64,000 nucleotides of DNA from Eledone cirrhosa (taxonomy: Eukaryota): assembly GCA_964016885.1 (NCBI GenBank), contig OZ024745.1, forward strand, positions 120,280,001 through 120,344,000, given 5' to 3'. The position numbers and the translations under genes were made by a program. How positions within the stretch are numbered: the stretch's first letter is position 1; the number at the start of each line of letters is the position of its first letter. Of this stretch, positions 52,707 through 58,000 are shown in pieces. Below the pieces are notes generated by a model that worked only from the letters and a program-made list of their open reading frames with translations, made no database searches and was not told the origin of the DNA.

Positions 52707-53220
52707 TCAGTATAAGTGTGCATGATTATATGTATTATTAGACGTGCAGAGATTTATGTATGCATATATATATATATATGTATATATATATATATATATA
52801 TATATATATATATATATATATATATATGTATATATATATATATATATATATATATATAATATATATATATATATATATATATATGTATATATATATATAT
52901 ATATATATATATAATATATATATATATATATGTATATATATATATATATATATATATATAATATATATATATATATATATATATATATATAATATATATA
53001 TATATATATATATAATATATATATATATATATATATATATATATATATATGTATATATATATATATATATATATATATATAATATATATATATATGTGAA
53101 TATAGACATAGAATATTCGAAAATATTCTGTATGTTTATAATAAACATTTTGAAGACCTAATCGCTATAGAATAGAATACGTCACGTATTACAATTAGAT
53201 TCTCGATAAAAGCAAGGGAA

Positions 53221-53263
53221 GTAATCTACGCGTTTCATTCTTGTTAGAAATCATCAGGACTAC
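53221..53263 (-). ncRNA. Hammerhead ribozyme (first of 5 minus-strand copies, 310-bp spacing)
   Basis: Reverse complement: gtagtc-CTGATGA-tttct aaca agaat-GAAA-cgcg-TA-gattac. Confidence 0.85.
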
Positions 53264-54967
53264 ATATCCAGTGCTTTTATCGAGAATGACACAGCTAGAG
53301 ACTTATAGAATACTTAGCTGTGTACAGGAACTGGTTTGAAAGAGCGGTTGCCGGTCCGGCAGAAATTAGAAATTGGAATAAATGCTCTGAAATAGCGATA
53401 TATATGTGAATATAGACATAGAATATTCGAAAATATTCTGTATGTTTATAATAAACATTTTGAAGACCTAATCGCTATAGAATAGAATACGTCACGTATT
53501 ACAATTAGATTCTCGATAAAAGCAAGGGAAGTAATCTACGCGTTTCATTCTTGTTAGAAATCATCAGGACTACATATCCAGTGCTTTTATCGAGAATGAC
53601 ACAGCTAGAGACTTATAGAATACTTAGCTGTGTACAGGAACTGGTTTGAAAGAGCGGTTGCCGGTCCGGCAGAAATTAGAAATTGGAATAAATGCTCTGA
53701 AATAGCGATATATATGTGAATATAGACATAGAATATTCGAAAATATTCTGTATGTTTATAATAAACATTTTGAAGACCTAATCGCTATAGAATAGAATAC
53801 GTCACGTATTACAATTAGATTCTCGATAAAAGCAAGGGAAGTAATCTACGCGTTTCATTCTTGTTAGAAATCATCAGGACTACATATCCAGTGCTTTTAT
53901 CGAGAATGACACAGCTAGAGACTTATAGAATACTTAGCTGTGTACAGGAACTGGTTTGAAAGAGCGGTTGCCGGTCCGGCAGAAATTAGAAATTGGAATA
54001 AATGCTCTGAAATAGCGATATATATGTGAATATAGACATAGAATATTCGAAAATATTCTGTATGTTTATAATAAACATTTTGAAGACCTAATCGCTATAG
54101 AATAGAATACGTCACGTATTACAATTAGATTCTCGATAAAAGCAAGGGAAGTAATCTACGCGTTTCATTCTTGTTAGAAATCATCAGGACTACATATCCA
54201 GTGCTTTTATCGAGAATGACACAGCTAGAGACTTATAGAATACTTAGCTGTGTACAGGAACTGGTTTGAAAGAGCGGTTGCCGGTCCGGCAGAAATTAGA
54301 AATTGGAATAAATGCTCTGAAATAGCGATATATATGTGAATATAGACATAGAATATTCGAAAATATTCTGTATGTTTATAATAAACATTTTGAAGACCTA
54401 ATCGCTATAGAATAGAATACGTCACGTATTACAATTAGATTCTCGATAAAAGCAAGGGAAGTAATCTACGCGTTTCATTCTTGTTAGAAATCATCAGGAC
54501 TACATATCCAGTGCTTTTATCGAGAATGACACAGCTAGAGACTTATAGAATACTTAGCTGTGTACAGGAACTGGTTTGAAAGAGCGGTTGCCGGTCCGGC
54601 AGAAATTAGAAATTGGAATAAATGCTCTGAAATAGCGATATATATGTGAATATAGACATAGAATATTCGAAAATATTCTGTATGTTTATAATAAACATTT
54701 TGAAGACCTAATCGCTATAGAATAGAATACGTCACGTATTACAATTAGATTCTCGATAAAAGCAAGGGAAGTAGGTTTATTATAAACATACAGAATATTT
54801 TCGAATATTCTATGTCTATATTCACATATATATCGCTATTTCAGAGCATTTATTCCAATTTCTAATTTCTGCCGGACCGGCAACCGCTCTTTCAAACCAG
54901 TTCCTGTACACAGCTAAGTATTCTATAAGTCTCTAGCTGTGTCATTCTCGATAAAAGCACTGGATAT

Positions 54968-55010
54968 GTAGTCCTGATGATTTCTAACAAGAATGAAACG
55001 CGTAGATTAC
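54968..55010 (+). ncRNA. Hammerhead ribozyme (first of 8 plus-strand copies; last at 57138-57180)
   Basis: gtagtc-CTGATGA-tttct aaca agaat-GAAA-cgcg-TA-gattac; stem I extended by attctcgataaaagca/tgcttttatcgagaat. Confidence 0.85.
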
Positions 55011-58000
55011 TTCCCTTGCTTTTATCGAGAATCTAATTGTAATACGTGACGTATTCTATTCTATAGCGATTAGGTCTTCAAAATGTTTATTATAAACATA
55101 CAGAATATTTTCGAATATTCTATGTCTATATTCACATATATATCGCTATTTCAGAGCATTTATTCCAATTTCTAATTTCTGCCGGACCGGCAACCGCTCT
55201 TTCAAACCAGTTCCTGTACACAGCTAAGTATTCTATAAGTCTCTAGCTGTGTCATTCTCGATAAAAGCACTGGATATGTAGTCCTGATGATTTCTAACAA
55301 GAATGAAACGCGTAGATTACTTCCCTTGCTTTTATCGAGAATCTAATTGTAATACGTGACGTATTCTATTCTATAGCGATTAGGTCTTCAAAATGTTTAT
55401 TATAAACATACAGAATATTTTCGAATATTCTATGTCTATATTCACATATATATCGCTATTTCAGAGCATTTATTCCAATTTCTAATTTCTGCCGGACCGG
55501 CAACCGCTCTTTCAAACCAGTTCCTGTACACAGCTAAGTATTCTATAAGTCTCTAGCTGTGTCATTCTCGATAAAAGCACTGGATATGTAGTCCTGATGA
55601 TTTCTAACAAGAATGAAACGCGTAGATTACTTCCCTTGCTTTTATCGAGAATCTAATTGTAATACGTGACGTATTCTATTCTATAGCGATTAGGTCTTCA
55701 AAATGTTTATTATAAACATACAGAATATTTTCGAATATTCTATGTCTATATTCACATATATATCGCTATTTCAGAGCATTTATTCCAATTTCTAATTTCT
55801 GCCGGACCGGCAACCGCTCTTTCAAACCAGTTCCTGTACACAGCTAAGTATTCTATAAGTCTCTAGCTGTGTCATTCTCGATAAAAGCACTGGATATGTA
55901 GTCCTGATGATTTCTAACAAGAATGAAACGCGTAGATTACTTCCCTTGCTTTTATCGAGAATCTAATTGTAATACGTGACGTATTCTATTCTATAGCGAT
56001 TAGGTCTTCAAAATGTTTATTATAAACATACAGAATATTTTCGAATATTCTATGTCTATATTCACATATATATCGCTATTTCAGAGCATTTATTCCAATT
56101 TCTAATTTCTGCCGGACCGGCAACCGCTCTTTCAAACCAGTTCCTGTACACAGCTAAGTATTCTATAAGTCTCTAGCTGTGTCATTCTCGATAAAAGCAC
56201 TGGATATGTAGTCCTGATGATTTCTAACAAGAATGAAACGCGTAGATTACTTCCCTTGCTTTTATCGAGAATCTAATTGTAATACGTGACGTATTCTATT
56301 CTACAGCGATTAGGTCTTCAAAATGTTTATTATAAACATACAGAATATTTTCGAATATTCTATGTCTATATTCACATATATATCGCTATTTCAGAGCATT
56401 TATTCCAATTTCTAATTTCTGCCGGACCGGCAACCGCTCTTTCAAACCAGTTCCTGTACACAGCTAAGTATTCTATAAGTCTCTAGCTGTGTCATTCTCG
56501 ATAAAAGCACTGGATATGTAGTCCTGATGATTTCTAACAAGAATGAAACGCGTAGATTACTTCCCTTGCTTTTATCGAGAATCTAATTGTAATACGTGAC
56601 GTATTCTATTCTATAGCGATTAGGTCTTCAAAATGTTTATTATAAACATACAGAATATTTTCGAATATTCTATGTCTATATTCACATATATATCGCTATT
56701 TCAGAGCATTTATTCCAATTTCTAATTTCTGCCGGACCGGCAACCGCTCTTTCAAACCAGTTCCTGTACACAGCTAAGTATTCTATAAGTCTCTAGCTGT
56801 GTCATTCTCGATAAAAGCACTGGATATGTAGTCCTGATGATTTCTAACAAGAATGAAACGCGTAGATTACTTCCCTTGCTTTTATCGAGAATCTAATTGT
56901 AATACGTGACGTATTCTATTCTATAGCGATTAGGTCTTCAAAATGTTTATTATAAACATACAGAATATTTTCGAATATTCTATGTCTATATTCACATATA
57001 TATCGCTATTTCAGAGCATTTATTCCAATTTCTAATTTCTGCCGGACCGGCAACCGCTCTTTCAAACCAGTTCCTGTACACAGCTAAGTATTCTATAAGT
57101 CTCTAGCTGTGTCATTCTCGATAAAAGCACTGGATATGTAGTCCTGATGATTTCTAACAAGAATGAAACGCGTAGATTACTTCCCTTGCTTTTATCGAGA
57201 ATCTAATTGTAACACGTGACGTATTCTATTCTATAGCGATTAGGTCTTCAAAATGTTTATTATAAACATACAGAATATTTTCGAATATTCTATGTCTATA
57301 TTCACATATATATCGCTATTTCAGAGCATTTATTCCAATATATATATATATATATATATATATATAATATATATATATATATATATATATATAATATATA
57401 TATATATATATATATATATAATATATATATATATATATATATATATAATATATATATATATATATATATATAATATATATATATATATATATATATATAT
57501 ATAATATATATATATATATATATATATATATATATAATATATATAGAGCTCAAGCCGTTTCGACGGCTATTTCAGTCCAGAAATAGCCGTCGAAACGGCT
57601 TGAGGTCTGCCGTCGGGGTCATACTTTTTTGTGTATATATATATATATATATATGTATGAATATATATATATATATATATATATATATATATATATATAT
57701 ATATATATATATATATATATATATATATATATATATATATATATATATATATATATATATATATGTGTGTGTGTGTGTGTGTGTGTATGTATCAATATAT
57801 ATATATATATATATATATATATATATATATATATATACACACAATAGTACAGCATATTCGAAGTTCGAGCAGCAGCCAAGCCAACGAATGCCTTCAGCAG
57901 TGCAGCCAAGCACTCGACAAGGTATGGACCTCAGAGTAATGACACACAGTTTAAAGGGCTTTGCAAATTGAAGATAGCGACCGCTAATTCAGCCGCGTGA

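What the first reader, a model, noticed from the sequence alone, without database searches (positions are those of the whole stretch)
53091..57338. Young 310-nt hammerhead retrozyme / viroid-like RNA concatemer integrated in (TA)n
Seen: about 13.7 copies of a 310-bp unit, identical apart from two substitutions I could spot (near 56304 and 57213). Each full unit has a complete hammerhead core: CUGAUGA, GAAA, a GUA cleavage triplet, 6-bp stem I, 4-bp stem II and a tiny palindromic stem III (a-cgcg-u). The unit has no credible ORF. Established: non-LTR retrozymes of animals are tandem repeats of a few hundred nt with minimal type I HHRs that self-cleave, often as dimers via the palindromic stem III, and give circular RNAs; they are thought to be mobilised by Penelope-like RTs. 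Inference: this is a very recent insertion made by rolling-circle reverse transcription of a 310-nt circular RNA, from a family I do not recognise.
Basis: partly seen in the sequence, partly recalled or inferred. Interest (0 to 1): 0.92.

Follow-up and report, generated by a model that had tools for sequence, protein, structure and literature searches.

The report
Self-cutting RNA repeat copied by retrotransposons
This is one of well over a thousand very recent insertions of a 310-letter ribozyme-bearing RNA repeat in a cephalopod genome, and its two-armed layout indicates that a Penelope-type retrotransposon enzyme copies one RNA, probably a circle, into both ends of a DNA break.

Summary
Real, but not a simple concatemer: two head-to-head arms (53088-54773 minus, 5.4 units; 54775-57339 plus, 8.3 units) in (TA)n, with 13 canonical type I hammerheads and two substitutions. 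The genome (3.0 Gb, cephalopod) holds about 16,900 units including sister families, in roughly 1,300-2,200 insertions. The arms' outer ends fall at two fixed sites about 33 nt apart, half-way round the unit from the cleavage site. 52 of 52 outward-facing end pairs use one site each, and in 33 of 36 loci both arms carry one haplotype, of 18 seen. This is the inverted-copy-plus-tail signature of Penelope-like elements (PLEs). Best reading: a non-LTR retrozyme inserted by a PLE enzyme that primes both target strands on one RNA, probably circular. Not shown: cleavage, a circular RNA, the partner PLE. Hits in 17 organism labels look like trace contamination, not transfer. New member of a known kind, with an anatomy that makes the mobilisation model testable.

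The parts
52764..53087 (.). Left (TA)n target tract
53088..54773 (-). Arm A: 5.4 identical units; outer 3' end at site A (unit position 131-139 counted from the cleavage site; the last 8 nt are ambiguous with the TA tract); inner end at unit position 4
54774..54774 (.). Inversion junction, one extra G
54775..57339 (+). Arm B: 8.3 units; inner end at unit position 81; outer 3' end at site B (unit position 163-165); substitutions at 56304 and 57213
54958..55032 (+). First plus-strand type I hammerhead with stem I extension; core starts 54974; predicted cut after 55004, repeated every 310 nt to 57174 (8 copies)
   Evidence: cleavage inferred, not shown
53199..53274 (-). First minus-strand hammerhead; predicted cut between 53227 and 53226, repeated every 310 nt (5 copies)
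55005..55314 (+). One unit from cut to cut: the predicted 310-nt monomer or circle (branched rod, 60% paired)
57305..57339 (+). [quoted passage not shown]
57315..57327 (+). Motif conserved in three sister families; site B lies at a fixed distance behind it (candidate RT positioning element)
   Evidence: role inferred
57340..57545 (.). Right (TA)n target tract
4076..4713 (+). Older sister family (unit about 320-340 nt, different hammerhead, shared start-site region); not part of the array

Best explanation
A non-autonomous, Penelope-mobilised hammerhead retrozyme. Read-through transcripts of arrays are cut to 310-nt monomers by pairs of hammerheads joined through the palindromic stem III, and are ligated to circles (inferred from known retrozymes). 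A PLE reverse transcriptase/GIY-YIG enzyme binds the region at about unit positions 60-235, nicks both strands of a (TA)n tract, and primes one cDNA at site A and the other at site B of the same RNA (end positions and pairing shown; enzyme inferred). Each cDNA runs through the cleavage junction for a variable number of rounds; the two 3' ends are then joined, often by short homology, giving a head-to-head two-armed array (junction anatomy shown; order of steps inferred). About 0.9 for PLE machinery, 0.7 for a circular template, 0.25 for the Hydra-like PLE at L194 being the partner.
For: Fixed ends: 1,095 site-B ends and 1,293 site-A ends genome-wide. 52 of 52 outward-facing pairs within 20 kb on the first 217 Mb of C1 are A+B (independent expectation 0.50, p 1e-16). 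In the 11 insertions picked by the ribozyme core alone, 9 have two arms and all 9 are A+B. Both arms share one haplotype in 33 of 36 loci with at least one full unit per arm, 18 haplotypes, chance 0.079. Inner ends are not enriched at the cut site (3 of 90 within 10 nt, 5.8 expected), and the four letters before the cut are unchanged at 505 of 505 junctions found with a two-mismatch motif. Overlap of 2 nt or more at 21 of 44 inversion junctions against 18.5% by chance. TA run of 6 nt or more after 87 of 97 outer ends. An autonomous Hydra-like PLE in the same genome has the same two-site layout with its own tail. The inverted 5'-truncated copy and 30-40 bp tail are PLE hallmarks (PMC8557442); a purified PLE cuts and extends both strands and starts internally at two sites (PMC11167929). 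Two-ribozyme cofold gives the double-hammerhead structure, -22.3 against 2 x -8.1 kcal/mol. All 8 array-fixed variants in the ribozyme region spare the core.
Against: No RNA data: cleavage, expression and circles are untested. The monomer's best fold buries the core; the active fold costs about 6.7 kcal/mol. Only 1 of 9 frog retrozyme dimers cleaved in vitro, and the purified PLE used uncleaved RNA. L068 has the same variant in the outer unit of both arms, L035 shares one between arms, and long arrays (L072, L037, L035) are mosaic: some templates may be multimers, or arrays are converted after insertion. The sparing of the core is not significant (2 of 7 single-unit changes hit it). No autonomous PLE sharing the start-site region was found among the families seen. 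40 of 51 loci were chosen by their B end, all on C1.
Confidence: 0.82

Rival explanations
1. PLE-mobilised, but the template is an uncleaved linear multimer read from homogeneous master arrays; the ribozyme is a passenger or acts rarely.
For: Uncleaved RNA was the dominant substrate of the purified PLE; L068 carries one variant in the outer unit of both arms; weak monomer ribozyme.
Against: 18 haplotypes with up to six changes fixed in every unit need a one-unit bottleneck followed by re-expansion; no single-unit variant recurs in register across loci apart from junction artefacts and chance pairs. It can hold for individual insertions, including this one, without replacing the circle step.
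Confidence: 0.12
2. Short PLE-type insertions of one or two units later expanded and homogenised at DNA level (unequal exchange, conversion), i.e. a dispersed satellite.
For: A 7-unit block duplication in L035 and mosaic patterns in L072 and L037 show later DNA-level turnover; this route is proposed in 10.64898/2026.07.22.740005.
Against: Arrays with no internal differences already have 3-14 units; both inverted arms are multimeric and share one haplotype; single-unit changes are only 99 in 157,554 bp, artefacts included.
Confidence: 0.04
3. An infectious, viroid-like RNA moving between species and captured by host RT.
For: 20 of 24 listed runs, under 17 organism labels in 16 studies, hold 0.76-1.00 of the sampled words; two give a closed 340-letter contig.
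Against: Of 4 runs laid, X10 also holds depth 2-8 scraps of two other repeats of this host beside depth 34 of the unit; X1 has depth 12 only; raw reads of organism I (X24, 1.9 Gb read) have no read on the unit; X2 covers everything like host or kin. A 16,000-copy repeat is the first thing to assemble from trace contamination, and a tandem repeat closes into a circle in such contigs. No antisense ribozyme.
Confidence: 0.02

Closest known systems
Non-LTR retrozymes of animals (coral, mussel, axolotl; PMC7229834; vertebrate survey 10.64898/2026.07.22.740005)
   Same: Tandem units of 170-400 nt, low GC, canonical type I hammerhead in each unit, no ORF, thousands of copies. The 1-bp helix III with palindromic tetraloop and the U.U at the base of helix II both occur in the axolotl ribozymes.
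   Different: Circles and cleavage were shown there, not here. The head-to-head two-arm layout with two fixed ends was not found in these two papers by term search. No cephalopod family turned up.
EN+ Penelope-like elements (Poseidon of Anolis, PMC11167929; Neptune, Hydra, Naiad, PMC8557442)
   Same: Inverted 5'-truncated copy, 30-40 nt tail at one end, two internal start sites downstream of a hammerhead, AT-rich or (TA)n targets.
   Different: No ORF; the unit is only a pLTR-sized RNA; arms run to 30 or more units; strict one-site-per-arm pairing was not seen in vitro, where both strands used the same starts.
Non-autonomous PLEs such as MRC1 of Chlamydomonas (PMC8557442)
   Same: Multicopy head-to-tail insertions by PLE machinery.
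   Different: Those resemble their autonomous partner at the 3' end and mostly lack hammerheads; here the partner is unidentified.
L1 twin priming (recalled, no call)
   Same: Both target strands prime on one RNA and give an inversion.
   Different: There a minority outcome with a variable second site; here the rule, with both sites fixed and internal.
Hammerhead viroids and satellite RNAs (recalled)
   Same: Size, self-paired fold, hammerhead, possible dimer cleavage.
   Different: Genomic DNA copies with retrotransposon ends; ribozyme on one strand only.

Membership tests
Non-LTR retrozyme | Tandem units of about 150-450 nt, low GC, no ORF | tested here: met
   310 nt, GC about 0.33, longest frame 59 aa
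Non-LTR retrozyme | Canonical type I hammerhead in every unit | tested here: met
   13 of 13 cores intact, stems as in the definition; Rfam score below the gathering cut-off
Non-LTR retrozyme | Dispersed multicopy family | tested here: met
Non-LTR retrozyme | No LTR, PBS or PPT; target duplication longer than 4 bp when visible | tested here: inconclusive
   No LTR layout. About 12-14 bp duplicated at the one clear non-TA site, L034; hidden in (TA)n elsewhere; PBS and PPT not searched
Non-LTR retrozyme | Self-cleavage of monomer or dimer | not testable with these tools
   Folding energies only
Non-LTR retrozyme | Accumulates as circular RNA | not testable with these tools
   No RNA holder listed; the circle is inferred from fixed haplotypes
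Insertion by an EN+ Penelope-like element | Inverted 5'-truncated copy | tested here: met
   45 of 51 loci two-armed, 1 duplicated across a gap, 5 single in the stretch fetched, two of them cut by a gap or by the stretch end
Insertion by an EN+ Penelope-like element | Two internal start sites, 30-40 nt tail at one end | tested here: met
   Site A 124-139 (mode at or before 131), site B 163-167; 52 of 52 pairs A+B
Insertion by an EN+ Penelope-like element | AT-rich or microsatellite target | tested here: met
   87 of 97 ends
Insertion by an EN+ Penelope-like element | Homology to the pLTR of an autonomous partner | tested here: inconclusive
   Only a 26-of-28 nt match of ribozyme core and stem II to the Hydra-like element L194, whose ends and roughly 67-nt tail differ; other families seen do not match
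Autonomous PLE | ORF with RT and GIY-YIG endonuclease | tested here: not met
Hammerhead viroid or satellite RNA | Ribozymes in both polarities, RNA-to-RNA replication, infectivity | tested here: not met
   No antisense core; cross-species hits read as contamination; replication itself not testable

The most novel reading that the evidence does not exclude
Each insertion is a record of one circular RNA copied twice by a PLE dimer, one subunit starting at site A and the other at site B. The arrays would then be direct genomic evidence that retrozyme circles are PLE substrates, would show an obligatory asymmetry in PLE priming not seen in vitro, and would log A-to-I editing of the template during copying: at L059 an A>G change appears only in the last two rounds of arm B and in all of arm A, which would date arm B before arm A. 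A>G makes up 6 of 20 array-fixed substitutions against 3 of 54 single-unit ones (p 0.01; polarity taken from the commonest haplotype).
Probability: 0.3. Interest if true: 0.75.

Novelty: new member of a known kind. Interest (0 to 1): 0.55.

Why it matters
A 2020 review says animal retrozymes show no motif that reveals which machinery moves them (PMC7761336), and the 2026 preprint links them to PLEs by co-occurrence and pLTR homology only. Here more than a thousand near-identical insertions carry the PLE end signature at nucleotide resolution, name two start sites and a conserved positioning motif, and show both cDNAs coming from one haplotype. That gives a 310-nt defined substrate for testing rolling-circle reverse transcription by a PLE enzyme, and a statistic (one site per arm) that constrains PLE mechanism in general. 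It also means about 5 Mb of young inverted repeats, each able to give long double-stranded RNA, in a cephalopod genome (inference).

Tried and rejected
Horizontal transfer or an infectious RNA: rejected as unsupported after laying 4 of the 24 listed runs. Assembly artefact: rejected (X2; it may be the source sample, so it is not independent support). Linear monomer with template jumps at the cut ends: inner ends are not enriched there and junctions are clean. DNA search of the own genome returned nothing because common words are skipped; patterns were used instead. Partner search: a young Hydra-like family (830 aa; ends +72 and +209 from its own cut), a young Neptune-like family, 30 + 18 GIY-YIG loci and an exclusion pattern (37 hits, mostly sister-family or mutated copies) gave no element sharing the start-site region. 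Pfam named only a sub-threshold RT match in 1 of 4 PLE frames; clade names rest on motifs recalled and on the Atlas. No RNA holder listed. No earlier scan findings. Rfam found nothing for the 272-nt insert at the L037 junction. Arm length does not differ clearly between A and B (B longer in 27 of 44, p 0.11). Literature searches; most subscription papers and Repbase or Dfam entries are outside the library, and the preprint's supplements were not seen, so absence from print is not established.

Full report
Observation. The repeat is real. Tandem Repeats Finder gives two arrays of period 310, 53088-54773 (5.4 copies) and 54775-57339 (8.3 copies). Base-by-base comparison shows the first is the reverse complement of the second, with no difference in the first and two substitutions (56304, 57213) in the second, joined through one extra G. 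Thirteen hammerhead cores are present, five on the minus and eight on the plus strand. Rfam sees them only weakly (19.2 bits, cut-off 52). The fold is a branched rod, more stable than shuffles. Stems of 6, 4 and 1 bp with a palindromic loop match the canonical metazoan type I hammerhead as defined in PMC4209133 (passages). Alone, the ribozyme folds best with its core buried; two copies fold into the double-hammerhead form. There is no ORF and no antisense core.

Family. The window lies in a 3.0-Gb genome. Its hemocyanin unit scores 650-659 bits against entries 1js8, 4yd9 and 6r83 and 502 against 3j32; by recall the first three are cephalopod and the last gastropod, so the host is a cephalopod. 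The 40-nt ribozyme core occurs 4,470 times exactly, control 0. A pattern spanning this family and its sisters occurs 16,930 times; most listed rows are this family. End patterns count 1,095 and 1,293. Capture-recapture on C1 gives up to about 2,200 insertions. Single-unit changes number 99 in 157,554 bp, artefacts included: the family is very young.

Anatomy. I mapped 51 insertions: the window, 10 picked by the ribozyme core and 40 picked by their B end, all but the window on C1. Numbering from the cut site, one arm ends at site A (124-139, most often at or before 131, where the RNA itself has a short AU run able to pair with a TA primer) and the other at site B (163-167). 45 of 51 are two-armed and head to head. 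Using the end lists alone, 52 of 52 outward-facing pairs are A+B. Inner ends are spread round the unit, with no excess at the cut site (3 of 90). Junctions overlap by 2 nt or more in 21 of 44 cases (18.5% by chance; alignment extension may inflate long overlaps), are blunt in 6 and carry inserts in 12. 87 of 97 outer ends abut TA runs. At L034, a non-TA site, about 12-14 bp are duplicated.

Template. Variants are fixed in all units of an array and shared by both arms in 33 of 36 loci, among 18 haplotypes (chance 0.079; L057 left out as duplicated across a gap). The three exceptions are L059 (partial A>G), L068 (a single-unit change present in both arms) and L076 (two changes next to the junction). 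Fixing up to six changes in every unit needs a one-unit bottleneck and re-expansion, which a circle provides. Against a pure circle model: L068 has the same change in the outer unit of both arms, L035 shares one between arms and has a 7-unit block duplication, and L072 and L037 are mosaic. Later conversion or multimer templates therefore play some part. The window's own haplotype is the commonest (8 of 36), so its template cannot be told individually.

Machinery. The inverted truncated copy, the 30-40 bp tail at one end and the microsatellite bias are described for PLEs in PMC8557442 (passages). PMC11167929 (parts 1-2 of 4) shows a purified PLE cutting and extending both strands, starting at two internal sites that define the tail, predicted to be a dimer, and using uncleaved RNA. 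The genome holds young autonomous PLEs: a Hydra-like family whose paired ends sit at +72 and +209 from its own ribozyme cut (3 of 4 pairs appear to use one site each, one of them read only roughly), a Neptune-like family, and a second Hydra-like family with 9,393 ribozyme copies. None shares the start-site region. The last shares 26 of 28 nt of core and stem II; this is a lead only, since it was picked out of about 1 Mb and its tail differs. Two sister retrozyme-like families keep unit positions about 59-235 but have different ribozymes. Site B lies at the same distance behind a conserved motif in 34 of 37 distinct ends of this family and 5 of 10 sister ends, although the intervening letters differ, which suggests the start is measured from that motif.

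Other organisms. 20 of 24 listed runs hold the unit, under 17 organism labels. Laying four on a stretch with one unit and two other host repeats showed one run like host or kin, two with only a shallow closed contig (one with scraps of the other repeats), and raw reads from a labelled holder organism with no read on the unit. Trace contamination explains this; transfer is not supported. No RNA holder was listed, so expression is open.

Comparison. It meets the sequence-level definition of a non-LTR retrozyme (PMC7229834, passages; preprint 10.64898/2026.07.22.740005, parts 1-3 of 5 and term search); cleavage and circles could not be tested. Rolling-circle copying by PLEs was proposed in 2014 and for retrozymes in 2020 (PMC7761336, passages). 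Closely spaced opposite-strand ribozyme pairs were noted for PLE fragments. I found no description of the two-arm, two-site layout for retrozymes in these papers or in eight searches, with the library's limits.

Verdict. A new, very young cephalopod retrozyme family; new member of a known kind. Its value is the insertion anatomy, which ties retrozymes to PLE priming and defines a substrate for a direct test. Interest 0.55.

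Noticed in passing
window 4076-4713; L034:8630-9001; L046:1-273; L074:3238-3691; L147:2428-2871: Two older sister families share the start-site region but carry other hammerheads, one with a U3/A8 core and compensatory changes in stems II and III.
   Followed up: partly
window 5538, 5669, 11564, 22963, 40330, 41724, 61240: Seven further hammerhead motifs of other families in the window, mostly followed by (TA)n.
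   Followed up: partly
L111-L120 (G000:C1:183736500-183760000 and others): Very young Hydra-like PLE, 830-aa frame, 150 of 150 scored copies 99-100% identical, 6.7-7.0 kb tandem units with a 4-kb microsatellite-like UTR and a 137-nt tail.
   Followed up: partly
L194 (G000:C1:41166900-41174000): Second Hydra-like PLE with 9,393 ribozyme copies; core and stem II nearly equal to the retrozyme's; candidate donor or partner.
   Followed up: partly
L059:506-4524: A>G at unit position 276 in all of arm A but only the two innermost units of arm B; the same change recurs on four haplotype backgrounds in a UAG context of stem I: possible A-to-I editing of the template.
   Followed up: partly
L037:3599-3870: 272 nt of unrelated GC-rich sequence captured at the inversion junction; no match in the loci held or in Rfam.
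   Followed up: partly
L041:2143-2320; L066:4137-4152; L035:4894-4905: Junctions with short extra pieces of the unit, as after repeated template switches.
   Followed up: no
window 33899-35940 (+), 45427-46934 (-), 39495-39922 (+), 47392-48948 (+), about 62400-62950 (-): Decayed PLE frames of at least three types and an RTE-like RT frame; no host gene was recognised among the longer frames listed (labels recalled).
   Followed up: partly
window 57546-57625: Short inverted fragment of another (TA)n-targeted element right beside the array, also seen in L040.
   Followed up: no
window 7619-9976: Degenerate 20-21-nt tandem array of about 115 copies.
   Followed up: no
L146, L157, L193: A Neptune-like family ends with the same short motif plus TA run at its first site and a tail of about 34 nt, like the retrozyme's layout but with different letters.
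   Followed up: partly
runs X1, X10: A high-copy tandem ribozyme repeat assembles from trace DNA as a perfect 340-letter circle, a possible source of false viroid-like calls in public contigs.
   Followed up: partly
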